From IMG/VR virus record IMGVR_UViG_3300045988_175246: 64,000 nucleotides of DNA; one strand, given 5' to 3'. Within the stretch, counting starts at the first letter, position 1. Each line of letters opens with the position of its first letter. This stretch comes from a virus. Positions 299 to 63,691 of the stretch are shown here, piece after piece. Both the position numbers and the translations under genes were made by a program. The notes below the pieces were generated by a model. The model did no database searches, was not told the DNA's origin, and saw only the letters and a list, made by a program, of their open reading frames with translations.

Positions 299-1021
299 AT
301 GACGAAAGAAGGTATGATGCCAGACTTCACCAATTGGGGATTCAACAACAACCAGCAGTCGGAGCAGGACAATGGTTACGGTTCCGACAATTATGCTGAA
401 CCGGAGCAGTCTTCTGTCGAGGAGTCGCAGACGGAATCCGATTCTCTTAATCAGGAGAGTTCGGAGTCTGTCTCTGACGTGTCCGCACCGGCTGATGGTG
501 AGGATGTGAACGTGGACGCTGAGTCCACTGAAACCGAAGACAAGCCGAGGGGGAAGGGTAAGGGCCGTTCCAATCGCAAACCGCGTGAGAAGACCATGCC
601 GCACATCGAGGAACAGTTCGGCAAGAAGCTGATTCCTCTTGTCAAATCGTTGGATGACGAGCGTGTGGTTTCTCTCGCCAAGGCGTTGACCGATACGAAG
701 AAGAGCACTCCGGAAGCAGTGCTGGACGCATTGACCGAGCCGAAGAACCAACGTCGAATCTCTGAGTTCGCGTCCGCGTTGGAAGGGTTGGCTACAGCCG
801 AGCCGGGCATGATTGCCGCAGAGGTTACTCTGGTGTTCGCGCAGGGCAAGGATATGACCAACCTGCTGTTCTCCGTGCTGAACGCGGTCGCGCCGGAGAA
901 GAATTTCGGCCGTCCGGTTGACGACCAGTCTCCTGCCGGAATGCGTAAGAACCTGAGCAAGATTGTCGATAATTGGGGTGACGGTGTTGACCTTTCCGTT
1001 ATCGATGAGCTGAAAATCTGA
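299..1021 (+). CDS. hypothetical highly acidic protein
   Basis: 240-aa ORF; N-terminal half D/E/S-rich (SEQDNGYGSDNYAEPEQSSVEESQTESDS...), helical C-terminal half; hairpin at ~1040-1075 between convergent genes; antisense ORF 451..1080 rejected. Confidence 0.5.
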   Translation: MTKEGMMPDFTNWGFNNNQQSEQDNGYGSDNYAEPEQSSVEESQTESDSLNQESSESVSDVSAPADGEDVNVDAESTETEDKPRGKGKGRSNRKPREKTMPHIEEQFGKKLIPLVKSLDDERVVSLAKALTDTKKSTPEAVLDALTEPKNQRRISEFASALEGLATAEPGMIAAEVTLVFAQGKDMTNLLFSVLNAVAPEKNFGRPVDDQSPAGMRKNLSKIVDNWGDGVDLSVIDELKI

Positions 1022-1087
1022 GTTCCCATTCCGACATCATTGAGGGGAGTCGTCCTTACGGTCGGCTCCCCTCTGTTCATACTCGAA

Positions 1088-1852
1088 CTATTGTCTGCGA
1101 CGTAATCTCAAAGCGTCTTCGGACGAGTACACTCCGAACGGGCTGATGGTCACACTGTATTTCGTTATACGATACGTCCACTCGTTCTGACTGTCGTTTA
1201 ACTCCTTGAATCTATTTAGAAGATTCTGCTTGGAGAGGCTTTGCCTGCTTGCTGGAAGCAGTGATGGAAGGTCTGCCCGTTCGATGATGAGCCTATGGTC
1301 GTTCGGACAATACAATGCCGCCAATGCGAGCAGGTCTATCGCTATGGCGCTACCCGCGTTGGGGTACAGACACTTCAACGGCATCTGCCGGACGTTCCTT
1401 GTCATCATTTTTACGAACGGTTCCGTGAACGTGATTTTCCGATGCTCGATAGTGAGACTGTCGGCGGTGATTTCGGTGTGTTCGACCGGCGTGACTTTGA
1501 CTCCGTCCGCTCCGGTGAACTGGATTGACGAGAGCATGAGAAGCTGGTTCCGGACGGTAGTGCGTCCGTCTCCTCCACTGTTCAAACCGCATTTGTTGGC
1601 GAGGAAGAAGAAGTCGTCGCCGATGGTGAGCGTGCGGGTTTCCGCATCCCATTCGCGGCTTGGCGTGTTGATGAGAGTGGTGATGATTATGCTTAACAGT
1701 CTCGGTACTCTACCGGAGAAACTGTTCTTGGTTTTCGCACGATAGGGTGCGAACAGCGGATAGGATTCCGCGGTGAGATAGCCGATATCGTAGCCGAGTA
1801 TCGTATGATAGTCGGCTTTCAGGGTCTCCAGCCCATAGGTTCCTTCGTTCAT
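1088..1852 (-). CDS. hypothetical protein (possibly replication/DNA-associated; no diagnostic motif recognised)
   Basis: 254-aa ORF with ordinary amino-acid composition; overlapping plus-strand ORF 1206..1745 is S/R/C-rich junk. Confidence 0.45.
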   Translation of the reverse strand: MNEGTYGLETLKADYHTILGYDIGYLTAESYPLFAPYRAKTKNSFSGRVPRLLSIIITTLINTPSREWDAETRTLTIGDDFFFLANKCGLNSGGDGRTTVRNQLLMLSSIQFTGADGVKVTPVEHTEITADSLTIEHRKITFTEPFVKMMTRNVRQMPLKCLYPNAGSAIAIDLLALAALYCPNDHRLIIERADLPSLLPASRQSLSKQNLLNRFKELNDSQNEWTYRITKYSVTISPFGVYSSEDALRLRRRQ

Positions 1853-1976
1853 TGTGTCTCCTTATAAAAATGACGGGCGTGTGGTTCCGTCGATAACACA
1901 ATGATACCCCCAGTATTGTGAGGTCGGATACCAAAAGGTGCCGGTTGACAGCACCGTCCACCGGCACCCTGATGGG

Positions 1977-2285
1977 TTACAAGTCTTTCCTATCCGGCTT
2001 TGAACCGTTCCCATCCGTATCGGGTTTTTTATCCCTACCCACAGGTCTACGAAGTCCAGAGCCGGATTGTCCGGCCACACGACGTTCCAATCGAAGCTGG
2101 TACCGAATCTTCTCCAAGGTCTTCGACGTGTCAGTGATGTTCCCTTTACGGGCTTCACGAATCCACAGTTGACAACCCCGGTCGAGCATGACGACGTCGG
2201 ATAGTTTCGGTTGCCTTCCGGAACGTTTCAGTGACTTCGCCGGTGTCTGGTTTTGGTGTTGCTCATCGTCGCACATTCCGCCCAC
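1977..2285 (-). CDS. hypothetical small basic protein (gene model uncertain)
   Basis: One of three mutually overlapping minus-strand ORFs between the AAA ATPase gene and 1088..1852 (alternatives 1862..2158 and 2228..2443); charged K/R-rich composition favours this frame. Confidence 0.25.
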   Translation of the reverse strand: MGGMCDDEQHQNQTPAKSLKRSGRQPKLSDVVMLDRGCQLWIREARKGNITDTSKTLEKIRYQLRLERRVAGQSGSGLRRPVGRDKKPDTDGNGSKPDRKDL

Positions 2286-2490
2286 CTTTCCTTTTCACTG
2301 GGGTGGGCGAGCTGGTGTTGCGCCCACTTTCTCGCTTGTTTCATAGCGGCTTTCTTGCCGCCGTTGAGAGTGTGGGCAGTACCGTTCGCAATGGGAGTGA
2401 AGAATCCTTCATCTTCCACTTCGGCGCTCCACAGATATGACATGAAACCGTTTCTGCGGACATTGATATCGAACTTGTATCCGTCACGGT

Positions 2491-3447
2491 TCACTGGTTG
2501 GAAACCTCCATCTTCAGAGAGTTGAAAGCATTGACGAACAGGTCGGTCGGAATGGTTTCCGAACCGGAAATCAAAGTCTTGCGGGCCAGATTGTCCACTG
2601 TTTGGACGATAAGGGCTGGACTTATGTTCTCCACATTGATGTCGCATGGTCGAACGTCGGCTTGGATATTCAACTCCTTAAGCCGGTGCATGATAATAAG
2701 CCTTGTCGTAGTCTTGTCGGGAAGTGTCATGCGAACTCGAACGTCGAACCGACGCCATGCGGCACGGTCGATGAGACCGTCCATGTTGGTCGCGCAGATG
2801 AGAATGCAATCCTCCGGAAGCAGGTCTATTTTCTGTAACATGAGATTGGTTGCCCGACGCATTTCGGCAACGTCATGGGAGTTGTCGCGCCGTGCCAGAA
2901 GCATGTCGCATTCGTCTATGAACAGGAGCTTTCGTTCCATGTGGAGCCGGTCGAACACCAAGGCGATATTGGTTAACGTCTTACCGAGCTGACTGCTGAT
3001 AACACGGTCTGCACGAAGGATGACCCCATCCAGCCCAAGCCTCTCCGACAGGATGGAAGCGAAGGTGGTCTTACCCGTGCCGGGCGCTCCAGTGAGCATG
3101 ATTCGATTACGGGGAGCGAGATTATGCGCGGTCAGGACATCCAGTTTCCCATATTCGGCAACCAGCCCATCCAACAATCCCCGCACGGTCTTATCCCATA
3201 CGGGCTTATGAGTCCCGTCCGGTGGGAGCAACGGTTCGGTCAACCCGTCAACCGGTGCCAGACTCGCATTGACAGCCAGTCCCTTCTCTCGTTCCGACTC
3301 CGCCAGCCGACGTAGATTCGTAGTGTAGGCGGTCGGCTTGGCTTTCTCCACCGAGTCGGCCAGCAAGTCGATTTGCTGGGACAGTTTCAAATGGTCTCCG
3401 TTGCATGCGGCTCTGACCAGTCGAAGCATTTCCGTGCTGTTTAACAT
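2491..3447 (-). CDS. AAA+ family ATPase
   Basis: Walker A LTGAPGTGKTT, Walker B LLFIDECD, sensor region and C-terminal helical lid; 318 aa. Confidence 0.8.
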   Translation of the reverse strand: MLNSTEMLRLVRAACNGDHLKLSQQIDLLADSVEKAKPTAYTTNLRRLAESEREKGLAVNASLAPVDGLTEPLLPPDGTHKPVWDKTVRGLLDGLVAEYGKLDVLTAHNLAPRNRIMLTGAPGTGKTTFASILSERLGLDGVILRADRVISSQLGKTLTNIALVFDRLHMERKLLFIDECDMLLARRDNSHDVAEMRRATNLMLQKIDLLPEDCILICATNMDGLIDRAAWRRFDVRVRMTLPDKTTTRLIIMHRLKELNIQADVRPCDINVENISPALIVQTVDNLARKTLISGSETIPTDLFVNAFNSLKMEVSNQ

Positions 3448-3549
3448 ACTGACCTTCCTGCTTTCTGAAAATGATTTTTGTCAATAAACGTTATGGTCAA
3501 TGTTTGAGAAGTAGAAGGAAGTATAAATACGGCAGTCTTCCAATCTAAT

Positions 3550-3780
3550 CTATTTGAGAGAGGAACCGTAGACGATGATGGAACCCACCGAAACCGACAA
3601 CACCAGCAGTGACACGACGGTCATCAGCCGATAGTTGAACAGGTCTGAACGGGATTTCTCGTCAGGCATCCGACTCATTCTTCCTATCGACAGTCGAGCG
3701 TAATGCACCAGCGCGGTCAAGCTCAACGCCGACAATATTATGAGAGAAACCATGCAACATATCTGCTCTTTGGAATACAT
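3550..3780 (-). CDS. small membrane protein
   Basis: 76 aa with two hydrophobic segments (MVSLIILSALSLTALV..., LMTVVSLLVLSVSVGSIIVY). Confidence 0.4.
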   Translation of the reverse strand: MYSKEQICCMVSLIILSALSLTALVHYARLSIGRMSRMPDEKSRSDLFNYRLMTVVSLLVLSVSVGSIIVYGSSLK

Positions 3781-4121
3781 CAGACGCCTTTACGAAGCCA
3801 CAAATCTGGATGGTCGAGATACGGGTACAGTTCGGGAATCTTTCGCACAGCTTCCTGAATCCAACCGTTCTCGCAGATACGTTCTAAATAATCTAATGGC
3901 TTGCGTTGCAGGGACTTCGACTTGGTGTTCCGTGCCTTGTGGATTGCTTCCACAGCCTTCTTGTTCGCCTGTTGGAATGTGATTTTTCCTTTGGCCTTAT
4001 CGTCCGAAATGGTTTGCAACCTTGCTATCAGACGGTTGATGGTAGCCATATCCTTGGCGTATGGGCGTGCCGGAATGGCTGTTCTGCTTATGTTTTCCTT
4101 GCCGAATCCGTTGCCGCTCAA
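3780..4121 (-). CDS. hypothetical protein, paralog of 4118..4573
   Basis: Shares ...ISDDKAKGKITFQQANKKAVEAIHKA... and ENGWIQEAVRKIPELYPYLDHPDLW with its neighbour (TISYEEANHLAVDAVATA / TNGWIREAANEMGLVYPDLDYPERW); probable true start at internal Met (MATINRL...). Confidence 0.5.
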   Translation of the reverse strand: MSGNGFGKENISRTAIPARPYAKDMATINRLIARLQTISDDKAKGKITFQQANKKAVEAIHKARNTKSKSLQRKPLDYLERICENGWIQEAVRKIPELYPYLDHPDLWLRKGV

Positions 4122-4573
4122 ACCGTTGCCTTCCTTTCCTTTTTACGGCTATGGTCTCGATGTTTGCCCCACCGTTCCGGATAGTCCAAGTCCGGGTAAA
4201 CCAAGCCCATCTCGTTTGCCGCTTCACGAATCCAACCGTTGGTGCAAAGCTTGCAGAGTCGTACCATGGGGCCGCTCGTGGCGCGTGGCATTCCTCCGTT
4301 GGCGGTCGCCACCGCGTCCACGGCGAGATGGTTCGCCTCCTCATATGAGATTGTTCCGTCGCTTTTACCGTCGGCTATCTCCCACAATCTTTTACGCAGG
4401 TTGAAGAGCTTCTTGGCCTTCTCGAACGTTGGATGGTATGTCTGTATGGTTTCCGGCATTGTCCTGTCCGAATACTCCTTTCGTGTTGTCCACTGTGCTC
4501 GGATTGCGTTTTTCAGGTCAGAGTCCGGCCTGTTGGAAACGGCCAATCCAATATTTGTAGTCGGCGTCCGCAT
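4118..4573 (-). CDS. hypothetical protein, paralog of 3780..4121
   Basis: Tandem duplicate; stop/start overlap with downstream paralog; probable true start at internal Met (MPETIQTY...). Confidence 0.5.
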   Translation of the reverse strand: MRTPTTNIGLAVSNRPDSDLKNAIRAQWTTRKEYSDRTMPETIQTYHPTFEKAKKLFNLRKRLWEIADGKSDGTISYEEANHLAVDAVATANGGMPRATSGPMVRLCKLCTNGWIREAANEMGLVYPDLDYPERWGKHRDHSRKKERKATV

Positions 4574-4898
4574 ACGCTTTGTTGCATGTGGTGAGGATTT
4601 CCTGATATCGGACTTGAAGGTCGGGTTGGTATCGTTCAGTGGACTTCGGGAGCACTGTGGTCATGGCCCCATGGTTGAACAGCAACACCTCACGGTCGGC
4701 GGCTTCGTGTTCGAGTTTGCGGTCGATTCCCTCAAACCATTGGTGTACCTCGTCGTCGTTTGGCAGTCGGCCTTCGCCAATCATTCTGCTCATGGTGTCC
4801 TTGAGGTCGAGCAGCGCGTCCTGCATGCGTTCGTTCTTGAACAGGAGTCGTTCCACTTCGGTTCTCGGCTCTCGTTCGGTGTTGTTTTTATCGTCCAT
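4518..4898 (-). CDS. hypothetical protein
   Basis: 126-aa charged helical ORF (ERLLFKNERMQDALLDLKDTMSRM...). Confidence 0.45.
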   Translation of the reverse strand: MDDKNNTEREPRTEVERLLFKNERMQDALLDLKDTMSRMIGEGRLPNDDEVHQWFEGIDRKLEHEAADREVLLFNHGAMTTVLPKSTERYQPDLQVRYQEILTTCNKAYADADYKYWIGRFQQAGL

Positions 4899-4974
4899 TG
4901 GTTTCCTTCGTTCCTGCGAACATGCCTATGCCCCAGTCCGTTCGGGCTGGGGCATTCCTGTTTGTTTTAGGCGT

Positions 4975-5140
4975 CGAGTTTCTTGATGAAGTGAGCGAAC
5001 AGTGCGGTGGAGCTGAGTAGGAATGTGATGCTGGTGATTGCCATTACCACGTGGCCGTAATCCTGTCTCCACATGAGGAGTGCGCTGACGATTGTGATGA
5101 GTGTCAGTGTCAGGTTGATGTTGTTTTCCGTCTGTTTGCT
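4975..5140 (-). CDS. small membrane protein (55 aa), driven by a minus-strand copy of the conserved array promoter
   Basis: Own translation of minus strand: MSKQTENNINLTLTLITIVSALLMWRQDYGHVVMAITSITFLLSSTALFAHFIKKLDA; hairpin+T-rich 3' of stop (4931-4954); promoter motif copy at 5190-5212. Confidence 0.4.
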
Positions 5141-5189
5141 CATGGTTTCTTCTTTTTGTTCTGGCGTGTTGGGGAGTGTGTGGCTCCCT

Positions 5190-5212
5190 TTTTTGTGGAC
5201 GTTTCCAGTATA
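5190..5212 (-). promoter_or_regulatory. conserved promoter/leader motif, minus-strand copy (TATACTGGAAACGTCCACAAAAA)
   Basis: Reverse complement of 5190-5212 matches the motif repeated about 25 times at 25.9-52.5 kb; lies ~50 nt upstream of the ATG at 5140. Confidence 0.45.
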
Positions 5213-5342
5213 ACAAAGGGTGTGGTCGAACGCAAATCATCCGACCGCGAATCTCCGAACGCTTGCATACCCCCACCTAGTGTGTTAAGCTGACCTCGCC
5301 CACACAAAACATTCCACAGGAACGGAAAAGACCACAGAAACA

Positions 5343-5567
5343 ATGAGCGCAACCGAATACGACAACGGCAACACATCCGCACTCCAAGTCATCGGCAACG
5401 AGGGAACCAACAAACTCACCATCCTCCAATCCCCCAGCTTCGGGAAGGAACTCATGTTCACCATCACCGACAGCGACACCGCGACCAGCGTCGTCGTCAA
5501 CGATATAGAAACCCTCCGCAAAATCAGAGACTTCCTCAACGAAAGCATCCGCTGGATGGAAGCGTGA
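5343..5567 (+). CDS. hypothetical small protein
   Basis: 74-aa ORF; opposite-strand ORFs 5277..5879 and 5285..5638 are G/D/V-rich antisense artefacts. Confidence 0.4.
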   Translation: MSATEYDNGNTSALQVIGNEGTNKLTILQSPSFGKELMFTITDSDTATSVVVNDIETLRKIRDFLNESIRWMEA

Positions 5568-5570
5568 ACC

Positions 5571-6122
5571 ATGGTCGAAGACACTGTCTGCACCATCGGC
5601 GTATATGGTGGCCGACAACCGTCCATACTCGTCAACAACCATCTCGTCTACGGTCGGATGCCCGACTCCGAAACCCAGCCGGACATCATCGCGGACGTTC
5701 CGAAGAACAGGCTCGTCGCCAACCTCAACCCAGCCTCCGACGGCATGACGGACAGTCCCAGACTTCCGTTGGAACTGTTCGCCGCATGGCTCGCCAACGG
5801 TGACGTGGGCATCAGCTCGCTCGCCATCGTCCAACGGCTCACCGGAATCACAATGACCGTGAACGGCACGCGCAAACATGGTTGCGAGGACACTCCGAAA
5901 GACCCCGGAGACCTACGTCGGATACTCGGAATGTTCGACATGGTGCCATCCGCACGTGCCTATCTGAGTCTCATGCGCGACGTGTCGGACGATTGGAAAA
6001 CCATCATCGACCATTGGGACGAACTCGAAAAACAGTATCGGAAAGAGGAACACAATCCATCCGGTTGCGCCCCCAAAACCTACCGGATACTGAAACGATT
6101 GAAGGAAGGAAACCATGCCTAA
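5571..6122 (+). CDS. hypothetical protein
   Basis: 183-aa ORF; 8-nt overlap with the following ParB-like gene. Confidence 0.45.
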   Translation: MVEDTVCTIGVYGGRQPSILVNNHLVYGRMPDSETQPDIIADVPKNRLVANLNPASDGMTDSPRLPLELFAAWLANGDVGISSLAIVQRLTGITMTVNGTRKHGCEDTPKDPGDLRRILGMFDMVPSARAYLSLMRDVSDDWKTIIDHWDELEKQYRKEEHNPSGCAPKTYRILKRLKEGNHA

Positions 6123-7878
6123 CAAAGACATCAAAACCGAACCACGGTTCATGACCATGATTCAGAAAGACCTCCTCCCGACATGCAAGGCGTTGAATCT
6201 CGACGTTGACCCGTTCGCCAACGCGCGAACCGTGTTCATCGACCGTGACAGCGTGGGACGGATTCTCTCCTACATGAGCGACCATGAAATCAACCCCGAA
6301 TGGTACGGCCTCCTGCCTGATAATCTGTTCGTCGGAACCGGACTGCCGGTACTCACCGGCGTCGAAGGAGAATACTTCGCCCGTATGACCGGACGGAACC
6401 TCACCAAGAAAGTCGCGGCGAAAACATTCATCGCGGACATGGAAGCCTACTGGCTGAGCAAGGACAATCTGAAACGGACTGACGGTACGAAAGGCAACGG
6501 AACCACGCTCGGTTTCGGACGTTGCCCCGGACTACGCGAAGCCAGCCGATACAACGAACGCATCTTCAAAAGCAACGAATACGAGTACACGAATCCCGTG
6601 GACGAGTATGGCATCGACACTGTTTCACGTTACCGTCAGGTTGGTGAAATCTACAATGAGGTCGGACAATGCTTCAAGGGAATGGCACAGGCGAGTACTC
6701 CCCTCGCACCATTCGTCTTCCTCACCCATAAGGAATACGAGGGCGGACTGGACACGGTTGTGAACCACTGCCCATACATCACCCATTCGGACGCCACCCG
6801 CATCATCGACGGGATGAGACAGTTCCCTCCGAAACGAAGCGTGGACAGGTTCATGCTCGCGTTCACCATGACCGCGTTCGCGTTCGCCATGAATCAGGTC
6901 GAGGAATCCGAACAGTACGAGACGGTCGAAGTGAAACCACCGAAAACCGAAATCAGACGGCATTCCGGCGCTCCGAAAACCACGTTGCTCATCCATTTGA
7001 AACCGGAAGAGCCAGCACCCAAGGCCACGCCATCCTACGCCGGTGAAACCGACGAATACGATTGGGACAGCATCACCGGACGGGTCGAAACCATCACCCC
7101 GGACGTTGCCAAGGAAATGCTCGGCGTGAACACCAACAACCGCAACGTGAGCCGCACACAGGTCGAACTGTTCGCCCGAACCATGGCGCAGAAGGCTTGG
7201 AAAATGAACGGCGAAGCCATCAAATTCAGCAACGCGGGACGCTTGTTGGACGGACAGCACAGGCTCCTCGCATGCGTCGAATCCGGTGTTCCGTTCCGCA
7301 CTCTGGTCATTCGCGGACTGCCCGAAGACACGCAGGAGACCATGGATGCAGGCAAGAGCCGCACCATGGCTAACGTGCTCGAACTGAAAGGCCGCAACAA
7401 CGCCAAACAGCTTTCCACCGTGGCCCGTTCCATCTATCTGAGCGAACAGTTGGGTGTGGAAGCCGCATGCGTCAACAACATGTCACCGACCCGAAATGAA
7501 CTGCTGACGTTCATCGAAAGCACTCCGCAATTGGAGGATACGCTACGACAGGCCAGCACGTTCTACACGAAAAGCAACCATCTCATGTCCACCAGCATGG
7601 CCGCGCTCCTCTACTGGACGTTCAACGAAATCGACAGTGAGGCGTGCGAACGGTTCTTCGACATGCTCGCCACCGGCGCGAATCTTAACGAGGGAAGCCC
7701 CATCCTCGTACTCCGCAACACGCTGTTCGACATCAACAAGCGTGGAGCGCACAGCGACAGGACAAGCCGCCGACGCATCGTCGGAATCACCATCAAAGCG
7801 TGGAACAAATGGCGTGAGGGAGCGACTGTGAAACTCCTCAAATTCTCTCCGAACGAACAGTTCCCGGACGCAATCTGA
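6115..7878 (+). CDS. ParB/Srx-like nuclease-domain protein
   Basis: ParB N-terminal domain signature KFSNAGRLLDGQHRLLACVESG in the C-terminal third; 587 aa. Confidence 0.7.
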   Translation: MPNKDIKTEPRFMTMIQKDLLPTCKALNLDVDPFANARTVFIDRDSVGRILSYMSDHEINPEWYGLLPDNLFVGTGLPVLTGVEGEYFARMTGRNLTKKVAAKTFIADMEAYWLSKDNLKRTDGTKGNGTTLGFGRCPGLREASRYNERIFKSNEYEYTNPVDEYGIDTVSRYRQVGEIYNEVGQCFKGMAQASTPLAPFVFLTHKEYEGGLDTVVNHCPYITHSDATRIIDGMRQFPPKRSVDRFMLAFTMTAFAFAMNQVEESEQYETVEVKPPKTEIRRHSGAPKTTLLIHLKPEEPAPKATPSYAGETDEYDWDSITGRVETITPDVAKEMLGVNTNNRNVSRTQVELFARTMAQKAWKMNGEAIKFSNAGRLLDGQHRLLACVESGVPFRTLVIRGLPEDTQETMDAGKSRTMANVLELKGRNNAKQLSTVARSIYLSEQLGVEAACVNNMSPTRNELLTFIESTPQLEDTLRQASTFYTKSNHLMSTSMAALLYWTFNEIDSEACERFFDMLATGANLNEGSPILVLRNTLFDINKRGAHSDRTSRRRIVGITIKAWNKWREGATVKLLKFSPNEQFPDAI

Positions 7879-7900
7879 CCTTGGAAAGGACAAACAAAGC

Positions 7901-8269
7901 ATGGTCGAAAAACCGAACACATCCCCGGCGAAGCTTCTGACCGCAGACGAGGCTTTGGCCTTGGGAAGACGACCGGAAGTCGTCAACGTCTTGAAAAACA
8001 AGCACGGATGGTGGATAATCTTCACCACCCAATTCCAAGACGAAGTGACCCTCCGCTACCTGCAAGGGGAACGCCCCTCGGAGATATTCCGCAGTCACAA
8101 TCTCGGGCCGGAAATCCTCGGATACAAGCGCATAGAACGTTGCATATACCGGTGGGTCAACCATCCCAGCAACACCCGTATCAGACGTTGGCAAGCGGAA
8201 CACCGCCTATATGAGACGTTGAACAACAAGCAAACCAATCCTGACAAGAAGGAGAACGGCGACAAGTGA
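7901..8269 (+). CDS. small HTH-like DNA-binding protein
   Basis: 122 aa; segment RYLQGERPSEIFRSHNLGPEILGYKRIERCIYRW resembles transposase-type/sigma-like HTH; sits between ParB-like and DnaB genes. Confidence 0.35.
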   Translation: MVEKPNTSPAKLLTADEALALGRRPEVVNVLKNKHGWWIIFTTQFQDEVTLRYLQGERPSEIFRSHNLGPEILGYKRIERCIYRWVNHPSNTRIRRWQAEHRLYETLNNKQTNPDKKENGDK

Positions 8270-9606
8270 GCGTCCCCACACCAATCCACAAGGACATGGC
8301 CGAACAAGTATTGTTGGGGGCCATGCTTCAAGACTCGGAAACGTTGGACAAGGTCATCAGCCAGCTTTCCGAAGAGGACTTCTACCAGCCGACCAACCAG
8401 ACCATCTTCCATAATATAAAGGAACTGGCCGCAGACAATAACCGTGTGGACGCGCAAATGCTGTCCTCGCACATGATGGACAACGGACAGTTGGAACAGG
8501 TCGGCGGCATCGACTACATCGCCCAGCTTGTCGGCTCCGCGCCCACGTCGAACAACAGTGACTATTTCATCAAGCAGATTCGTGACGCGGCCATCCTCCG
8601 CCACATCAACGTGGTCGGACAGCAGTTGCAACAGATGAGCAACGTATCCGACGCGTCAGCCGAAGACGTGCTCAGCAAATCGTTGGAGGCCGCGTTCTCG
8701 TTGGAGGATTCAAGCCGTTCCGAAGACGACGAGTTGAAGACCGCATACCGCCTGTCCGACGAAATGCTCCAACAGTTGGATGAAATGTCACAGAATCCGA
8801 ACGAGTTCGGAACACCCACCGGCTTCCGTGACATCGACGCGTTGACGCACGGATTGCAAGCCGGACAAATGGTCATAGTCGCGGGCCGTCCGGGCATGGG
8901 CAAGAGTACTCTCGGCATGGATTTCGCGCGTAACGCCGCACTGCACAAGGGTCTGCCGACTGTGATTTTCAGTCTGGAAATGGGCGGTCACGAACTCATG
9001 CAACGCATGTTCGCAGCCGAAACAGGCATCCGTCTCGCATCGTTCCAACATCCCGAGAATCTGAACTCGAATGATTGGAACAAACTCAACGCGCTTTGCC
9101 ATCAGGTCGAGAAGGCACCATTGTGGGTTGATGATTCCGCCATCATCAACATGAGCACCATCCGTGCGAAATGCCGTGCTCTCAGCCGCAAGGTCAACGG
9201 GTTGAAGCTTATCGTCATCGACTACCTGCAACTCATGTCCTCCGGTAAAACCGTCGAGAACCGTCAGCAGGAAGTGTCGAACTTCTCCCGCCAATGCAAA
9301 ATGCTCGCCAAGGAACTGCAATGCCCCGTGGTCGTGCTCTCCCAGTTGAACCGTAATGCGGAACAGCGTGCCGACAAGAAGCCGGAACTGTCCGACCTGC
9401 GAGAGTCCGGTTCCATCGAACAGGACGCCGACATGGTGTTTCTCGTGCATCGTCCCGAATACTACGACCGTGAGGAACGTCCGGGCGAAGCCGACGTGAT
9501 TCTCGCCAAACATCGTAACGGGCCTACCGAAACGTTCAATCTCGCGTTCATGGGCGAATGCTCCAAATTCGCGGACATGGCCGCAGGTTTCGAAAACGAG
9601 TTCTGA
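8266..9606 (+). CDS. dnaB: replicative DNA helicase DnaB
   Basis: DnaB N-terminal domain (VLLGAMLQDSETLDKV), Walker A AGRPGMGKST, Walker B LIVIDYLQLM, arginine-finger region SQLNR...LSDLRESGSIEQDADMV; GTG start overlapping the upstream stop. Confidence 0.9.
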   Translation: MSVPTPIHKDMAEQVLLGAMLQDSETLDKVISQLSEEDFYQPTNQTIFHNIKELAADNNRVDAQMLSSHMMDNGQLEQVGGIDYIAQLVGSAPTSNNSDYFIKQIRDAAILRHINVVGQQLQQMSNVSDASAEDVLSKSLEAAFSLEDSSRSEDDELKTAYRLSDEMLQQLDEMSQNPNEFGTPTGFRDIDALTHGLQAGQMVIVAGRPGMGKSTLGMDFARNAALHKGLPTVIFSLEMGGHELMQRMFAAETGIRLASFQHPENLNSNDWNKLNALCHQVEKAPLWVDDSAIINMSTIRAKCRALSRKVNGLKLIVIDYLQLMSSGKTVENRQQEVSNFSRQCKMLAKELQCPVVVLSQLNRNAEQRADKKPELSDLRESGSIEQDADMVFLVHRPEYYDREERPGEADVILAKHRNGPTETFNLAFMGECSKFADMAAGFENEF

Positions 9607-9656
9607 AACAAGTTCTGTCATAGTGGGTACGCCCACAAAAAGAAAGGAAAAAGTCA

Positions 9657-11054
9657 ATGCCAACAACATTGATAATCGTCGCGGCAGTGGCGATACTCAT
9701 CATCCTGCTCGCAACCGCAAGCTACAAGGTCTGCCCCGCCGACCGAGTCATGGTCATCACCGGGCCGGGTGGACGACGCTTCGTCTCCGGCGGAAGCGCG
9801 TTCATCATACCCTTCATCATGCGCGTGGACTGACTCTCCCTCGGAGCGGTGCAGTCGCTCCTGAGAACCGACACGCCGATTCCGACGAAGGACGCAATCC
9901 TCATCGACGTGAACGCCGTCGCCAACTTCCAAATCGCATCCGAGACCATGACCGTGGATGAGAACGGTAAACAGGTGAAGGCATTAGAAAACGCCGCCAA
10001 GAACTATCTGAACCAGTCAAAGGAGCGCATGGAGAAGGACGTGACCCAAGTGCTCCTAGGCAAGCTGCGCGAGGTCATCGGCAGGACCGAGTTGAAGGCA
10101 CTCATGGAGAACAGGGACACGTTCGCCGCGACCGTGGCCGAATCCGCCCGCGTGGACATGGAACGGCTTGGCCTTCAATTGACCACGTTCAACATTCAAG
10201 ACTTCACCGACCGTCAGAACGTCATCGCCAACATGGGCGCTGAAATGGCCGCCGAAATCAGCCGGAATGCGAAGCTCGCGTCCATCAACGCGGAACAGGA
10301 CGTGGCCGTCCGTCAGAACCAGCTCGACCTGAAACGAGCCGAACTCCAATCCATCTCCGACAAGGCGCAGGCCGAGGCCGACGCGGTGAAGGGCATCACC
10401 GCCGCCGAACAGTCCAAGACTCTCAAGGTCAAGGAGCAGGAGGCGGAAATCGCCGCCGCCGAAAAGAAGGCAGTCCTCGAACAGAAGAACGCCGAAATCG
10501 AAGAGCAGAAACTGAACGCGACCATCCGCAAGAAGGCCGACGCCGACAGATACGCCGCCGAACAGCAGGCCGACGCGCAAGTGTACACGACCCGCAAGCA
10601 TGCGGATGCGGAACTGTATCTACGCCAGCAGGAGGCTCAGGCCACCCAATCCACCGCCGACGCGGACGCGCACGCGACCGAAGTCAAAGGCAAGGCCGAG
10701 GGTTCCGCCGCACAGGCCAAGGGTGTAGGCGAAGCCGAGGCAATCCGCGCCCAAGGCCGAGCCTACAATGCGATGAACAACACGTACATCCTCGCCCAAC
10801 AGTACATTCAGATTCTCCCCGACATGGTTCGAGCCGCCGCCGAACCGCTCACCAAGGTTGACCACATCACCATGTATGGCGACGGAAACAGCACGAAGCT
10901 CGTGGGCGACACGGTGAACAGTGTGAGCCAGTTGAGCGAAGGCTTGTCGCAATCCTTGGGCATCGATTTGAAAGCGTTGCTGAACAGTATGGTGTCCGGT
11001 CATGCCGCCGGTTCCGCACTAAGTGGGAAAGGTTCCGAACAGTCCGGAAACTAA
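9657..11054 (+). pseudogene. flotillin/band-7 (SPFH) family gene interrupted by a single in-frame TGA at 9831-9833
   Basis: 9657..9830 encodes the TM helix + YKVCPADRVMVITGPGGRRFVSGGSAFIIPFIMRVD; after TGA the same frame continues LSLGAVQSLLRTDTPIPTKDAILIDVNAVANFQI... through the coiled-coil flotillin body (ORF 9849..11054 in the same frame). Confidence 0.7.
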
Positions 11055-11072
11055 CCTGTTCAGGGACATGTT

Positions 11073-21311: not shown

Positions 21312-22541
21312 ATGTCTTGGGTTGTTGCCGACGACCTGCCCTCAACCATTCTTTTCTCTTTCCCTAGTGAAGGAAGCATTAAAATCGTGAATGCGAGTCA
21401 AAGACGTAGAAGACGCCAACGCAGACTGCAACAACGCTCGGATGATAAGTACAGGAAGCTCCACCGTTACATCGACTTCCAACAAACATTCGGATTCGAC
21501 GCGCTCTACCAAGCCGCAAGAAAATGCAAACGCGGCGTCACGTGGAAAAACACAGTGTTGAACTTCGACAATAGGCGTGCCGTCAACTGTTGGAAACTCG
21601 CCCAAGAATTAGAGGACGGCACATACAAGAAGAGAGCGCCAATCCGATTCGACATTTCCGAACGAGGCAAACTCCGCCACATCAGCGCGGTATCCTTCCG
21701 AGACCGGGTGGTGCAACGCGCCTTATGCGACAACAGTCTCGTCCCCATCGTGGAAAGCCAACTGATATACGATAATGCGGCAAGCCTACCGAAACGTGGA
21801 ACATCGTTCGCCCGAAAACGGTTCGAACTACACTATAAGCGGGCTTTGGGCAAATGGGAGCATCCGTATGCTGTCATCTTCGACTGTTCCAACTATTTCG
21901 GAAGTATCAGCTCCCAACGAGCGTTCGATATGATTTCCACCCTGTACCGGAGCATCGCCCGCACCGGACGGGAGAAGCAGGATGTGGAACGGATTCTAAC
22001 CGTATTGAGAATCTTCGTATTGGACGAACCACACTTAGGGTTAGGTAATCAGACGAGCCAAACCATGGCTATCTGGTATTTGAACAAGGTTGACCACTGG
22101 TGCATGTCGCAAGGATTCTACGGACGGTATATGGATGATGCCTACTGTTTCTGCGAGAATCGTGAACAGGCCGAACGTGTGTTGGCCGGTTATGAGCGGC
22201 GTGTCAACCAATTGGGATTGCGGTTGAACAAGCATAAGACCCGCATAGTGGACTGTCATACCGGTCAACTCACATTCCTGAAACGCGTATACAGTGTACA
22301 GGATGACGGCAGTATTCTTATCCGCATGCACCATAAGGCGTTGCGTGCAAGCCGACGGCATGCGTGTAACCTTATCTGCTCATATGATGGCGTGCATGTG
22401 GGATTGAGGACAGTTCAGGATTCTTGGACGAGCCATGAGAGCACACTGTCGGGTCTAACTCACCGTCGTGGACTGTGCGCTCGGGAGAAAGCGTGGTATC
22501 GGAGGCATTGTGAAATGCGGAAGCTGGCTTTTCACCCGTGA
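21312..22541 (+). CDS. DGR reverse transcriptase
   Basis: RT motifs: HISAVSFRDRVVQRAL, AVIFDCSNYFGSI, YGRYMDDAYCF (YMDD catalytic box), LNKHKTRIV. Confidence 0.85.
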   Translation: MSWVVADDLPSTILFSFPSEGSIKIVNASQRRRRRQRRLQQRSDDKYRKLHRYIDFQQTFGFDALYQAARKCKRGVTWKNTVLNFDNRRAVNCWKLAQELEDGTYKKRAPIRFDISERGKLRHISAVSFRDRVVQRALCDNSLVPIVESQLIYDNAASLPKRGTSFARKRFELHYKRALGKWEHPYAVIFDCSNYFGSISSQRAFDMISTLYRSIARTGREKQDVERILTVLRIFVLDEPHLGLGNQTSQTMAIWYLNKVDHWCMSQGFYGRYMDDAYCFCENREQAERVLAGYERRVNQLGLRLNKHKTRIVDCHTGQLTFLKRVYSVQDDGSILIRMHHKALRASRRHACNLICSYDGVHVGLRTVQDSWTSHESTLSGLTHRRGLCAREKAWYRRHCEMRKLAFHP

Positions 22542-28454: not shown

Positions 28455-28655
28455 ATGCATATCAAGGATGTTCTGCTTATGACGCTTGTCACCATCGCTT
28501 TCGGTGGGGTGGCAACCGCAGTCGCGTTCGGCATCTACTCGTTCGGCACTTGGCTGTTCACGTTTGGCCGCACGTTCGGTATCGTATCCGTGTGCGCCAT
28601 TACGGTGGTGTTGCTGACCGTCGCGGTTGAGGTTCGTTTGAGCATGAATCGTTAG
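28455..28655 (+). CDS. small membrane protein (2 TM)
   Basis: 66 aa, LLMTLVTIAFGGVATAVAFGIY and FGIVSVCAITVVLLTVAV. Confidence 0.45.
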   Translation: MHIKDVLLMTLVTIAFGGVATAVAFGIYSFGTWLFTFGRTFGIVSVCAITVVLLTVAVEVRLSMNR

Positions 28656-31799: not shown

Positions 31800-33480
31800 T
31801 TTGACGTGCTGAACAACGGAATCTGCGCAATCTGCAAAAAGAACAAGTGGACTATCCTCTGCCCCGAATGCTCCCGACCGTTATGTTCCGACTGTTTGAC
31901 GTCCTCCCGGTGTTGAAACACCGGGATTCCAACACTTATCGTGTTGAGGTTTTGCACGTCATGGTGGAAGCGTTCTTCCCGCGATAAGCGGGTTGGACGG
32001 CTGATTCCGTTTCGGCGTGCTCGGCTTCGTCCAAGCCGATAAGATGGTCCAATCCCCGTTTGAGGATGTTGTTGGCCGCGTTCAAGTCGGCGTTCATGCT
32101 CATGTGGCATTGCTTGCATTCGAAGTCCGCTTGGCTTTCACGGTTTCGACTGTCGCAATAACCGCATTCACTGCATGTCTGGCTTGTGTACGCGGGGTTG
32201 ACGAGTATGAGACGGTTTCGTCCGGTCAACTGTGTTTTGTATTCGAGTTTGCCGACGATTCCGCCAAGGCTTGCCGCACGTAGACCACGGTTGAGTCCAC
32301 GTTTTGCCGACTGGCTGTTATGCAGGTACGCGCCCGGCCTTTCCGGGTCTGGTTTGGCTTTCGCCTTGCGGCTCATGTCTTGCAGGTTGAGGTTTTCCAA
32401 TACGATGAGGTCGTATTGTTTGACGAGACTGGTGGTGGTCTTGTGTTGCCAATCGTCTATGATTCGGTGGGCTTTCGCGTACAGTCGGCCGATTTCCCTG
32501 CCGGTGCGCTCATAGGTGCGGCTTGCATGCTGACGGTATTGTTTTAATGTTTTGCCGGACATGCTCACGCGTCTCGCCTGTGCTTTCTGACGGCGGCGTA
32601 TCTCCCTGTCGATACGGTTCAACCGTTCCTTGGGAAGGTCGATGAAAGTGTTGTCGGACGTGGCGAGCGTGTGGACGCAACCCCTGTCCAAGCCGACCAT
32701 GGCTCCCGTGCGCTCACGGCCTATCGGCAGCGGGTCGTTGACGAACACGAGCGTGCGTCGTGTCCAGTTCACCCCGATGCTCGTATAGTCGCGTATGGAC
32801 TGGCTGACCCGGACACGGATATGGATGCTGTAACGGCATGATTGCCCGTCCAGACGATATGCGCCCGGATTCTGTCCGGTGATGACGACCTCGCCGTGAT
32901 TCCGGTTCAACTGCCGGTAGTTCGCGTTCGCGCCCTTATTGTGCCAGCAGACGAAATACAGGTCGTCATGACGTGATTTGAACCGTGGCATCATGCCCGG
33001 ATTCCTATGCTTTTTCTTCAACGTCCTACGACGCTTGTTCGCACTCCACCAGTCCGTGTTCTCTATCCTGTTCGGGGATTGCAACACCATGGAGGGGATG
33101 GCCGCAAGCCAAGAGCATTCCAATCTAACCTGACGGTCGGAACGCATGTCCGGCCTCCCGTTCAACGGGACGGCCGTCTGGGATTCCCTGTCCCACTTGG
33201 TGCGACGGGAGCGCAGCTGATTGTACCTGCAACGCCATCCGTCGCACAGCCAGCGCATCACGATGTCCGGGTTGGTCGAATACAAGGGGGCCTGCTGCCC
33301 GTCTGGGGTCGCACTCATGCCGAGATATGGTGCGGCACCCCGCACCTGCACTCGTTCTATCACGACCTTCTGGGACATGATTCCGATTATATCACTACGC
33401 GCGTATAATGAAAGAAAACTTAGACCGAAAGGAGGGGGCGGTTCCTCCCGGCATTGAAATACCGGGCATCCCCGCCCGGA
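31800..33480 (-). mobile_element. IS200/IS605-family tnpB-only (IS1341-like) insertion within the gene array
   Basis: TnpB ORF with no tnpA; hairpin-rich sequence at 33420-33480 (CCCGG-cattgaaata-CCGGG and flanking GC dyads) resembling IS605 end structures; interrupts the otherwise regular cassette array. Confidence 0.5.
31936..33378 (-). CDS. tnpB: TnpB (IS605 OrfB family RNA-guided endonuclease-like transposase accessory protein)
   Basis: RuvC-like motifs and zinc finger: LVNPAYTSQTCSECGYC...FECKQCHMSMNADLNAANNILKRG; 480 aa. Confidence 0.85.
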   Translation of the reverse strand: MSQKVVIERVQVRGAAPYLGMSATPDGQQAPLYSTNPDIVMRWLCDGWRCRYNQLRSRRTKWDRESQTAVPLNGRPDMRSDRQVRLECSWLAAIPSMVLQSPNRIENTDWWSANKRRRTLKKKHRNPGMMPRFKSRHDDLYFVCWHNKGANANYRQLNRNHGEVVITGQNPGAYRLDGQSCRYSIHIRVRVSQSIRDYTSIGVNWTRRTLVFVNDPLPIGRERTGAMVGLDRGCVHTLATSDNTFIDLPKERLNRIDREIRRRQKAQARRVSMSGKTLKQYRQHASRTYERTGREIGRLYAKAHRIIDDWQHKTTTSLVKQYDLIVLENLNLQDMSRKAKAKPDPERPGAYLHNSQSAKRGLNRGLRAASLGGIVGKLEYKTQLTGRNRLILVNPAYTSQTCSECGYCDSRNRESQADFECKQCHMSMNADLNAANNILKRGLDHLIGLDEAEHAETESAVQPAYRGKNASTMTCKTSTR

Positions 33481-62962: not shown

Positions 62963-63430
62963 TTAGCGAGCAGCCCTGCCGTCAGCCTTCTTGTACTGGG
63001 ATTCCCTTCCGTCCAACCCGTTCTTTCCGAGGCGAAGCAGGATGGTGTTCATCCACATGACACCCGTGGGGATGAGGTATCCGATAAGTGCGAGCATGAG
63101 GCAGAAATTATCTCCGGGGTTCCAGTGAACGTAGAGCATTGGAACGATTGCCATGAGCACGCAGTCGATGGGGATGTCACGCAGTTTGCCCTCATGGAAT
63201 TCGATTCGGAAGCACCAGATGATGGTTTGGAGGATGGCAACGAAGATGAGGAACGTGAAGATGTCGAATGCTCCGACGGCTATTGAGGGGATGACTGTTC
63301 CGAAGAAGTTGTTGAACATCGTTTCGAACGTTTGTCCTGCACTGGTCATGGACAGTCCTCCGATTGCGAGGACGATGACGCAAATCGAGTAGACGATGAA
63401 CGTGCCGATTGAGATAAGTAGCGTTGCCAT
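62963..63430 (-). CDS. integral membrane protein (about 4 TM)
   Basis: 155 aa, multiple hydrophobic helices. Confidence 0.5.
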   Translation of the reverse strand: MATLLISIGTFIVYSICVIVLAIGGLSMTSAGQTFETMFNNFFGTVIPSIAVGAFDIFTFLIFVAILQTIIWCFRIEFHEGKLRDIPIDCVLMAIVPMLYVHWNPGDNFCLMLALIGYLIPTGVMWMNTILLRLGKNGLDGRESQYKKADGRAAR

Positions 63431-63691
63431 TTTGTTTTTTCTCCTTTTTCTTTAGGTCATAATTTGTTTCCTTATGGCGACTCTTTTTTTGTGGACAATC
63501 TCAGTATAGCACGAACCTAAACTTTCTACAATAACTCGCCACCCAAGACGACGACACGCCAAGAAAACACCCCAACTAGCCCCAACCTCCCCAAACAATT
63601 TTCCTGTTTTCAAAAGGTTTACAACAAACAGTCCGTTAGTGTCGTTAATAGATTTCCGACATTCAAAAACAGATAATGAATGGAGTCCTCG

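What the first reader, a model, noticed from the sequence alone, without database searches (positions are those of the whole stretch)
4975..5212. A 26th copy of the array promoter, in reverse orientation 20 kb away, drives a 55-aa membrane mini-protein
The reverse complement of 5190-5212 reads TATACTGGAAACGTCCACAAAAA, closest to array copies 17 and 23. It precedes an unannotated minus-strand ORF (4975..5140) encoding MSKQTENNINLTLTLITIVSALLMWRQDYGHVVMAITSITFLLSSTALFAHFIKKLDA, with a hairpin plus T-rich tail after its stop. The promoter-defined regulon is therefore not confined to the 26-52 kb array.
Basis: seen in the sequence. Interest (0 to 1): 0.5.

Follow-up and report, generated by a model that had tools for sequence, protein, structure and literature searches.

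The report
Known plasmid promoter heads small-membrane-protein operon
A real extra copy of a promoter box already published for Bifidobacterium megaplasmids sits at a conserved backbone site and heads an operon, whose first gene here encodes a conserved 58-residue two-helix membrane protein of unknown function.

Summary
The window is part of a Bifidobacterium conjugative megaplasmid distantly related to pMP7017. The motif at 5189-5212(-) is real. It scores 33 bits on a matrix built from 18 array copies, against 15 bits for the best random hit.

It is not the only off-array copy. A second minus-strand copy lies at 63485-63508, and degenerate copies lie at 5286 and 9619.

The box itself is already published. 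Dineen et al. 2024 (PMC10832533) describe a 34-bp motif overlapping the -10 at 19 sites spread over pMP7017. This site is the ortholog of one of them.

The ORF is 4967..5143(-) and encodes 58 aa, not 55. It keeps its length, its two hydrophobic helices and an upstream motif copy in every megaplasmid relative examined. pMP7017 lacks it: there the same promoter reads straight into the homolog of the next gene. So the promoter most likely drives an operon, with the mini-gene as a lineage-specific first cistron.

The hairpin after the stop codon is conserved, with compensatory changes. It has no U-tail on the coding strand.

The protein's function is unknown, and nothing here supports a toxin or holin role. 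This is a new member of a known kind, of modest interest.

The parts
5230..5235 (-). -35-like hexamer TTGCGT, 17 nt upstream of the -10
   Evidence: Read from the sequence. TTGnnn at 16-17 nt spacing is kept in relatives L002, L004-L006 (A1) and in L008 and L010. The array copies show only a weak TTG signal at this position.
5189..5215 (-). Extended -10 (TGT + TATACT, 5207-5215) followed by the conserved downstream box GGAAACGTCCACAAAAAA. Together these are the pMP7017-family promoter motif.
   Evidence: Exact match. PWM score 33.2 bits against a null maximum of 14.9. The core is invariant in five aligned relatives. The motif is published in PMC10832533.
5171..5189 (-). Small stem-loop GGGAG-CCACACA-CUCCC at the predicted 5' end of the transcript
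   Evidence: Detected as a 7-pair stem on the opposite strand. It is approximately kept in relatives (A1). Any role is inferred only.
5147..5153 (-). Weak purine-rich Shine-Dalgarno-like tract (AGAAGAA) before the ATG
   Evidence: GAAGAAACCATG is invariant in A1. Distant homologs have GGAG (L008) or GGGAAG (L010) at the same spacing.
4967..5143 (-). 58-aa mini-protein gene encoding a two-helix membrane hairpin; first cistron of the operon
   Evidence: - ORF present.
- 41 homologous clusters at 75-100% identity.
- Distant members found by an exhaustive profile search.
- dN/dS is 0.4-0.65 overall and about 0.1-0.35 in the N-terminal half; the length of 58 codons is fixed.
- Two hydrophobic segments occur in all members.
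- AlphaFold2 gives helices 3-25 and 30-57 at pLDDT 80.5.
4928..4955 (-). Conserved GC-rich hairpin between the mini-gene and the next gene. It has no U-tract on this strand; the T-run is on the plus-strand side.
   Evidence: The stem shows a compensatory swap (CCCCAG/CUGGGG to CCCCGA/UCGGGG) in L002 and L010. The hairpin is absent in L004.
4518..4898 (-). 126-aa gene, the conserved second cistron. It is homologous to the pMP7017 128-aa gene that follows the orthologous promoter directly.
   Evidence: 39% identity, E = 1e-15. The family alignment includes L008 and L010.
3550..4459 (-). Three further tightly packed cistrons: two paralogous 113-aa genes (4118..4459 and 3780..4121) and a 76-aa two-TM gene (3550..3780)
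   Evidence: ORFs. The same order and sizes occur in L002, L003, L005 and L006. Stop and start codons overlap. No Pfam, PHROG or PADLOC hits.
2491..3447 (-). IetA-like AAA+ ATPase downstream in the same orientation. It may have its own promoter-like site at 3500-3471.
   Evidence: Pfam AAA, 1.2e-20. PADLOC IetA, 2.7e-62. Promoter-like site.
5286..5309 (+). Degenerate divergent copy of the motif (TAAGCTGACCTCGCCCACACAAAA). It heads the 74-aa / 183-aa / ParB-like / DnaB operon.
   Evidence: It is invariant in relatives (A1). pMP7017 has the equivalent divergent pair.
63485..63508 (-). Second off-array, reverse-orientation copy of the motif. It heads a 155-aa multi-TM ORF (62963..63430).
   Evidence: 30.3 bits. 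Leader and ORF. No Pfam family.

Best explanation
SHOWN BY SEQUENCE
- The site is a host-sigma-A-type promoter of extended -10 design: TTGCGT, 17 nt, TGT-TATACT.
- It carries the plasmid-family-specific box (G)GAAnnGTyCACAnAAAA directly downstream of the -10. This is the motif that marks about 20-25 transcription units on Bifidobacterium megaplasmids of the pMP7017 family.
- It lies in a conserved divergent intergenic region of the plasmid backbone. On one side are the ParB-like and DnaB genes. On the other is a leftward gene string.

INFERRED
- Transcription starts near G5200, about 7 nt after the -10.
- The transcript carries a leader of about 57 nt with a small 5' stem-loop. It is translated from ATG 5143 into a 58-residue protein that inserts into the membrane as a helical hairpin.
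- Transcription then meets a conserved hairpin without a U-tract. This hairpin may attenuate read-through or stabilise the short upstream RNA.
- Transcription continues into the 126-aa gene, two 113-aa paralogs and a 76-aa two-TM gene. It may reach the IetA-like ATPase.
- The downstream box is most likely the operator of an unidentified plasmid-encoded regulator that co-ordinates the whole regulon, as Dineen et al. proposed.

THE MINI-GENE
- It is a lineage-specific first cistron. It is present in this lineage and in two more distant megaplasmid lineages, always between the motif and the 126-aa-family gene. It is absent from pMP7017.
- My best guess for its role is a non-lethal accessory membrane partner of the operon's products. 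That part is speculative.
For: MOTIF MEMBERSHIP AND STATISTICS
-.
- The information profile shows a 24-nt box plus a weak -35.
- Every copy is followed within 0-125 nt by a Shine-Dalgarno sequence and a start codon.

PUBLISHED MOTIF AND PROPOSED ROLE
- PMC10832533 describes the motif, RNA-seq-based promoter mapping, and a proposed transcription-factor binding site.

ORTHOLOGY
- pMP7017 has a divergent pair of copies. Its minus copy lies upstream of a 128-aa gene that is 39% identical to the window's 126-aa gene.

CONSERVATION OF PROMOTER, ORF AND SYNTENY
- Seven loci show the same arrangement.
- More distant L010 and L008 keep a motif copy (31.2 and 19.4 bits) directly upstream of the mini-ORF, and the 126-aa-family gene directly downstream.

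CODING STATUS
- dN/dS is below 1 and the length is fixed at 58 codons.
- Indels of 1-2 nt upstream of the ATG break the longer frame that some gene callers extend to 99-100 aa.
- Divergent 55-64 aa members have the same two-helix pattern.
- AlphaFold2 predicts a helical hairpin.

OPERON
- Downstream genes are short-spaced or overlapping, and no sigma-70-like or motif site lies between 5143 and 3550.

HAIRPIN
- It is conserved with compensatory changes.
Against: - There is no transcript data for this plasmid, so the start site, operon extent and hairpin function are all inferred.
- The -35 matches only 3 of 6 consensus positions, and the generic sigma-70 scan did not call this site.
- The Shine-Dalgarno tract in this lineage is weak.
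- The C-terminal half of the protein evolves fast, and overall dN/dS reaches 0.66.
- pMP7017 works without the mini-gene, so it is dispensable for the operon's core function.
- In L009 a family member sits in an unrelated element with no motif and a non-homologous downstream gene. This weakens the 'partner of the 126-aa protein' idea.
- No regulator candidate was found.
Confidence: 0.7

Rival explanations
1. The mini-protein is a membrane-damaging toxin (type I toxin-like or holin-like). It would serve post-segregational killing, abortive defence or lysis.
For: - It is small and hydrophobic with a two-helix hairpin.
- It has a weak Shine-Dalgarno tract and a structured 5' leader.
- A terminator-like hairpin oriented for the opposite strand lies just beyond its stop codon, so an antisense transcript could end there.
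- An IetA-like defence-type ATPase lies in the same gene string.
Against: - There is no match to any Pfam, PHROG, PADLOC or PDB family.
- No plus-strand promoter-like site was found in 3400-5700. An RNA ending at the plus-strand terminator would stop before reaching the ORF.
- No endolysin or antitoxin gene is adjacent.
- It is the first cistron of a backbone operon under a promoter type reported as highly transcribed in pMP7017. That would be odd for an unprotected toxin.
- In L008 and L009 its stop codon overlaps the next gene's start, which is typical of co-produced partners.
Confidence: 0.12
2. The ORF is not translated. The 4967-5143 stretch is simply a long 5' leader, or a small RNA, of the 126-aa gene, comparable to the 133-nt leader in pMP7017.
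For: - pMP7017 has an untranslated leader at the same place.
- The Shine-Dalgarno tract is weak.
- The C-terminal half has a high dN/dS.
- The conserved hairpin and the nucleotide-level conservation of the first 90 nt could reflect RNA function.
Against: - The open frame of exactly 58 codons is kept across sequences that differ at 25% of residues.
- 55-64 codons are kept at only 37-60% identity, and the two hydrophobic segments are retained in every case.
- The frame is kept downstream of the ATG while indels break it upstream.
- Shine-Dalgarno-like purine tracts sit at the right spacing in all lineages, including a clean GGAG in L008.
Confidence: 0.07
3. The 24-nt box is not a promoter or operator. 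It would be a boundary or recombination site of mobile gene cassettes, and the off-array copies would be scars of cassette movement.
For: - The array consists of many short, unrelated gene units that each begin with the same box.
- An IS605/TnpB element sits inside the array.
Against: - The box begins with a canonical TGn-TATACT extended -10 and has a TTG at -35 spacing.
- It is always upstream of, and in the same orientation as, a Shine-Dalgarno sequence and start codon.
- Published RNA-seq mapping places transcript starts at these boxes in pMP7017.
- The 5.2-kb copy is at a syntenic backbone position in all relatives, not at a variable cassette edge.
Confidence: 0.03

Closest known systems
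The conserved 34-bp promoter-overlapping motif of pMP7017 (AWAYATGY-TATACT-GAATATGTCCACATAAAAWA; Dineen et al. 2024, PMC10832533)
   Same: - It has the same architecture and core: TATACT, 6 nt, GTCCACA-N-AAAA.
- It lies at the same distance from start codons.
- It has the same plasmid family and the same dispersal on both strands.
- This site is orthologous to the pMP7017 copy at 56047-56070(-), ahead of the homologous 128-aa gene.
   Different: - The window's lineage has its own sub-consensus (GGAATTGTTCACACAAAA in the array, GGAAACGTCCACAAAAAA here).
- It concentrates about 20 copies in one 26-kb co-oriented array.
- At this site it has an extra 58-aa cistron that pMP7017 lacks.
Global plasmid regulons with a repeated operator at many promoters (KorA/KorB of IncP RK2; ArdK/StbA/KorA networks of IncW R388). 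From general knowledge, not tested here.
   Same: One short conserved sequence overlaps the core promoter of many backbone and accessory transcription units on a conjugative plasmid. This suggests co-ordinated control by a plasmid-encoded factor.
   Different: - No regulator has been identified here.
- The box is not palindromic and lies downstream of the -10, across the predicted start site.
- The host is Gram-positive, and there is no sequence relationship.
Small hydrophobic toxins of type I toxin-antitoxin systems (Hok, Fst, TisB) and class II holins
   Same: Similar size (under 70 aa), hydrophobic helices and plasmid location.
   Different: - It has two helices rather than the single helix usual in type I toxins.
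- There is no antisense RNA gene, no lysis cassette and no sequence similarity.
- It is the first cistron of a conserved operon.
Intrinsic (Rho-independent) terminators and attenuators
   Same: A stable, conserved GC-rich stem-loop lies directly after the stop codon and before the next gene.
   Different: It lacks the 3' U-tract on the transcribed strand. The T-run is on the opposite-strand side.

Membership tests
pMP7017-family promoter motif (Dineen et al. 2024) | Core sequence TATACT followed by ...GTCCACA.AAAA, overlapping the -10 element | tested here: met
   Exact sequence at 5189-5212(-). It scores 33.2 bits on the array-trained matrix, against a null maximum of 14.9.
pMP7017-family promoter motif (Dineen et al. 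2024) | Lies within about 60 bp upstream of a translation start, in the same orientation | tested here: met
   There are 45 nt from the motif end to ATG 5143.
pMP7017-family promoter motif (Dineen et al. 2024) | Present at comparable genes in related megaplasmids | tested here: met
   It is invariant in L002-L007. It is present in L008 and L010. pMP7017 has a copy ahead of the homologous 128-aa gene.
pMP7017-family promoter motif (Dineen et al. 2024) | Restricted to these plasmids and absent from chromosomes | tested here: inconclusive
   - An exact-pattern scan of one genome per species gave multiple hits only in B. callitrichidarum TRI 5 (7 hits on 3 contigs).
- The 9 other hits were single hits in unrelated genomes. 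My estimate of the chance expectation is about 17, for 18 fixed bases in 596 Gb on both strands.
- Whether the TRI 5 contigs are plasmid was not checked.
pMP7017-family promoter motif (Dineen et al. 2024) | A transcript 5' end maps just downstream of the motif | not testable with these tools
   No RNA data exist for this plasmid. The published mapping is for pMP7017 only.
Sigma-70/sigma-A extended -10 promoter | A -10 of form TAnnnT preceded by TGn | tested here: met
   TGT-TATACT at 5207-5215, invariant in relatives.
Sigma-70/sigma-A extended -10 promoter | A -35 hexamer resembling TTGACA at 16-18 nt spacing | tested here: inconclusive
   TTGCGT at 17 nt matches 3 of 6 positions. TTG is kept in relatives. 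The generic scan did not call the site, and the array copies show only a weak TTG signal.
Intrinsic terminator | GC-rich stem-loop directly after the gene | tested here: met
   4928-4955, -23.7 kcal/mol, z = -3.5, with compensatory changes in relatives.
Intrinsic terminator | U-rich tract immediately 3' of the stem on the transcribed strand | tested here: not met
   The sense strand continues CAUAGGCAUGU in the window, L002 and L005, and CUUCGGCAUGC in L010. The scan finds a tail only on the plus strand.
Type I toxin-antitoxin | Small hydrophobic peptide (under about 60 aa) | tested here: met
   58 aa with two hydrophobic segments.
Type I toxin-antitoxin | Overlapping or adjacent antisense RNA gene with its own promoter | tested here: inconclusive
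   No plus-strand promoter-like site was found in 3400-5700. The plus-strand terminator lies outside the ORF. A consensus scan cannot exclude a weak promoter.
Type I toxin-antitoxin | Toxicity on overexpression | not testable with these tools
   This needs an experiment.
Holin | Part of a lysis cassette next to an endolysin | tested here: not met
   The neighbours are the 126-aa and 113-aa genes and an AAA ATPase. The only peptidoglycan hydrolase is at 59522-61858, in the transfer region. There is no PHROG hit.
Megaplasmid 2-TM mini-protein family (clusters P0032, P0042-P0049) | 55-64 aa; N-terminal M-x-K/R-x-T-E; first helix ending in MWR; short loop; second hydrophobic helix | tested here: met
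   Alignments and profile search, hydropathy, structure model.

The most novel reading that the evidence does not exclude
The mini-gene plus its U-less hairpin is a self-contained regulatory or effector module that some megaplasmid lineages inserted between the regulon promoter and the backbone operon.

Two versions are possible:
- A membrane-active peptide whose burst of synthesis on plasmid entry, or on loss of the regulon's repressor, depolarises the cell. That would be post-segregational killing or abortive defence, perhaps working with the IetA-like ATPase.
- A cistron whose translation controls read-through past the hairpin into the downstream genes.
Probability: 0.1. Interest if true: 0.5.

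Novelty: new member of a known kind. Interest (0 to 1): 0.25.

Why it matters
The result tidies the picture rather than changing it. The plasmid-specific promoter box that marks about a quarter of pMP7017's genes also governs the replication and partition backbone in a second, widespread and uncharacterised lineage of gut Bifidobacterium megaplasmids. The orthologous backbone site is conserved across lineages.

The new element is a narrow family of 55-64-residue two-helix membrane proteins. The profile search of 1.84 billion representative proteins gave nine hits, eight of them family members or fragments. In the megaplasmid lineages examined, the gene sits directly behind that box.

The regulator that reads the box is still unknown. 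A well-conserved, divergent pair of box-bearing promoters such as this one would make a convenient reporter and bait for finding it.

Tried and rejected
- Near-identity DNA searches of window 1-12000 against plasmid and phage collections found nothing. The lineage is not in those collections.
- A tblastn search of the mini-protein against 72,556 plasmids found nothing at E <= 1.
- Pfam, PHROG, PADLOC and PDB-sequence searches of the mini-protein and its four small neighbours found nothing usable.
- I looked for a regulator among ten small motif-driven array proteins. No DNA-binding family turned up.
- An exact scan of species-representative genomes with the array consensus gave zero hits. A looser pattern gave one multi-hit genome plus singletons at about the chance level.
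- I tested whether the gene downstream of the distant homolog in L009 belongs to the 126-aa family. It does not: hhalign probability is 0.1%.
- I rejected a single-subunit phage-type RNA polymerase promoter and an ECF-sigma promoter. The box starts with a canonical TGn-TATACT with TTG at -35 spacing. None of the ORFs I scanned against Pfam matched an RNA polymerase or sigma-factor family, though the scan did not cover every ORF in the window.
- I rejected the 99-100-aa N-terminally extended gene calls, because 1-2-nt indels break that frame between relatives.
- I did not run a fold search on the 58-aa model. A two-helix hairpin would give meaningless matches.

Full report
WHAT THE WINDOW IS

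The 64-kb window carries:
- a DnaB helicase, an SPFH/flotillin gene, an LPXTG pilin with a class C sortase, and a giant surface protein;
- a VirB4-like ATPase and a multi-domain cell-wall hydrolase;
- a long run of short, mostly uncharacterised genes.

Its 587-aa ParB-like protein is 47-54% identical, over its C-terminal half, to proteins of Bifidobacterium breve pMP7017 and four B. longum megaplasmids. Near-identity DNA searches of plasmid and phage collections found nothing. The window therefore comes from a Bifidobacterium conjugative megaplasmid that is a distant relative of pMP7017. Homologs of the mini-protein lie on metagenomic contigs of 175-230 kb and in an NCBI B. catenulatum record.

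CHECKING THE OBSERVATION

The 23-mer is present exactly as stated at 5190-5212 on the minus strand. I trained a 24-nt weight matrix on 18 plus-strand array copies, leaving this site out. The site scores 33.2 bits. The training copies score 29-44 bits. The best score in 100 simulated 64-kb sequences was 14.9 bits. The site is a full member of the family.

The quoted peptide is correct, but the ORF is 4967..5143 including the stop codon, and it has 58 residues.

A stable hairpin does follow the stop codon. The 'T-rich tail' is not on the coding strand. The T-run lies on the other side, so the consensus scan calls a terminator only for the plus strand, at 4928-4955.

By mismatches the nearest array copy is the one at 30303.

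The site is not the only copy outside the array:
- 63485-63508(-) scores 30.3 bits and heads a 155-aa multi-pass membrane ORF.
- Degenerate plus-strand copies lie at 5286-5309 and 9619-9642.

WHAT THE MOTIF IS

The information content of the array copies is concentrated in 24 nt, TATACTGGAATTGTTCACACAAAA. There is a frequent TG just upstream, a weak TTG at 16-17 nt spacing, and T-rich sequence further upstream. Each copy is followed by a Shine-Dalgarno sequence and a start codon in the same orientation. The element is therefore an extended -10 promoter with an unusually conserved 18-nt box running from the discriminator across the predicted start site.

At the site in question the full layout is TTGCGT (5230-5235), 17 nt, TGT-TATACT (5207-5215), then GGAAACGTCCACAAAAAA.

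This element is already in the literature. Dineen et al. 2024 (PMC10832533) mapped transcripts of pMP7017. They described a 34-bp motif, AWAYATGY-TATACT-GAATATGTCCACATAAAAWA, overlapping the -10 of six highly expressed genes. They then found 13 more copies 'distributed throughout the plasmid'. They assigned 56 genes (24% of the coding capacity) to the presumed regulon, proposed a transcription-factor binding site, and noted that the motif is specific to these plasmids. Their regulon table runs from p0032 to p0223.

My own scan of the closed pMP7017 sequence finds 24 copies, 15 on the plus strand and 9 on the minus strand, between 28 and 186 kb. Simulated sequences gave 0-1 copies.

THE SITE IS AN ORTHOLOG OF A PUBLISHED ONE

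pMP7017 has a divergent pair of copies at 56047-56070(-) and 56120-56143(+). The minus copy lies upstream of a 128-aa gene that is 39% identical (E = 1e-15) to the window's 126-aa gene at 4518..4898. Further along, a 259-aa gene matches the window's 254-aa gene (E = 1e-48).

I counted locus tags back from the cas genes. By that count, the 128-aa gene corresponds to p0067 or p0068, both of which are in the published regulon table. This correspondence is my inference.

In pMP7017 the promoter is followed by a 133-nt leader with no small ORF. A tblastn search of the mini-protein against all plasmids in the collection found nothing.

THE MINI-GENE IS REAL AND CONSERVED

Forty-one protein clusters at 75-100% identity were found. 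In seven fetched loci the order is always the same: a divergent 74-aa gene, then the motif, the 58-aa gene, the 126-aa-family gene, more small genes, and the AAA ATPase.

In the DNA alignment, the -35 region, the TGT-TATACT, the box, the leader start and GAAGAAACCATG are invariant or nearly so.

Some gene callers extend the ORF to 99-100 aa. However, 1-2-nt indels in the A-rich leader shift that upstream frame between relatives, and in the window the upstream frame ends in a stop codon that overlaps the ATG. The conserved product is therefore the 58-aa form.

Pairwise dN/dS is 0.38-0.66 overall and about 0.1-0.35 in the first 31 codons. There are no indels or stop codons.

An exhaustive profile search of 1.84 billion representative proteins gave nine hits. 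Eight are family members or fragments, and the ninth is a short match inside an unrelated 3,239-aa protein. The full-length family members are 55-64 aa (one further hit is a 30-aa fragment and one a 94-aa N-terminally extended gene call) and share M-x-K-x-T-E, a first helix ending in MWR, a short loop and a second hydrophobic helix. AlphaFold2 gives two helices, residues 3-25 and 30-57, at mean pLDDT 80.5.

Two of the distant members are on megaplasmid-like contigs:
- L010, 60% identical;
- L008, 42% identical.

Both keep a motif copy directly upstream, at 31.2 and 19.4 bits. Both keep a 126-aa-family gene directly downstream. In L008 the stop codon overlaps the next gene's start.

A third distant member, L009, is in a different actinobacterial element that carries Prim-Pol and WhiB genes. 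It has no motif, and its downstream gene is unrelated.

HOW IT MOST LIKELY WORKS

Shown:
- the promoter layout;
- the conserved linkage of motif, mini-gene and 126-aa-family gene;
- the tight packing of the next three cistrons (4118..4459, 3780..4121, 3550..3780);
- the absence of another promoter-like site before 3500.

Inferred:
- Transcription starts near 5200.
- The leader is about 57 nt and begins with a small stem-loop (5171-5189).
- The two-helix membrane protein is translated.
- Transcription passes through, or is partly stopped at, the conserved hairpin and continues into the operon.

The hairpin shows compensatory stem changes in L002 and L010. It is missing in L004, where the next gene starts 15 nt after the stop codon. 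It is therefore useful but not essential. Since it has no U-tract, it is at best an attenuator or an RNA-stabilising end.

The box is most likely an operator for an unidentified plasmid factor. I found no candidate.

The protein's function is unknown. No family, defence-system or solved-structure match exists. A toxin or holin role cannot be excluded, but it lacks every supporting feature I could test.

VERDICT

The promoter family and its dispersal are already known, and this site is the ortholog of a published one.

The new part is a narrow, conserved family of membrane mini-proteins. The gene has been inserted as a first cistron behind that promoter in some megaplasmid lineages. This is a new member of a known kind, of modest interest.

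Noticed in passing
window 63485-63508 (-), ORF 62963..63430 (-): A second off-array, reverse-orientation copy of the promoter box (TATACTGAGATTGTCCACAAAAAA, 30.3 bits). It heads a 155-aa multi-pass membrane protein with no Pfam family.
   Followed up: partly
window 5286-5309 (+), genes 5343..9606 (+): A degenerate divergent copy (TAAGCTGACCTCGCCCACACAAAA), invariant in relatives. It heads the 74-aa / 183-aa / ParB-like 587-aa / 122-aa / DnaB string, so the replication-partition backbone appears to belong to the same regulon. pMP7017 has the equivalent divergent pair.
   Followed up: partly
window 9619-11054 (+): The SPFH/flotillin gene carries an in-frame stop at codon 59 (9831-9833); relatives have Trp there and an intact 459-aa gene. 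Its upstream motif copy has lost the first T of the -10 (CATAGT) and scores 8.3 bits, against 17-20 bits in relatives. The gene is possibly decaying, or this is a sequencing error.
   Followed up: partly
window 2491..3447 (-): The AAA+ ATPase in the same gene string matches IetA of the IetAS anti-phage system (PADLOC E = 2.7e-62). No IetS-type protease gene is nearby.
   Followed up: no
window 4928-4955: The conserved hairpin after the mini-gene qualifies as an intrinsic terminator only for the plus strand, because the T-run is on that side. No plus-strand gene or promoter-like site that would need it was found within 3400-5700.
   Followed up: partly
window 28455..28655 (+): The array also encodes a 66-aa strongly hydrophobic mini-protein directly behind the motif copy at 28395. 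Small membrane proteins are therefore not unique to the 5.2-kb site.
   Followed up: no
window 31936..33378 (-): A TnpB / IS605-family ORF (OrfB_IS605 plus Cas12f1-like TNB domains) is inserted in the opposite orientation inside the co-oriented promoter array.
   Followed up: no
window 20178-22541: A reverse transcriptase gene (RVT_1, 21312..22541) lies just downstream of two 167-nt direct repeats that are 84% identical (20178-20344 and 20965-21131).
   Followed up: no
loci L011-L013, L016, L022, L025 (Bifidobacterium callitrichidarum TRI 5): Among one genome per species, only this marmoset isolate has multiple exact matches to TATACTG-N5-GTCCACA-N-AAAA (7 on three contigs of 34-178 kb). This suggests a related megaplasmid in a non-human-primate Bifidobacterium.
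   Followed up: no
pMP7017, NZ_KM406416.1 (loci L027-L030): A mismatch scan finds 24 motif copies (15 plus, 9 minus), against 19 reported. The five extra copies may be additional regulon members.
   Followed up: partly
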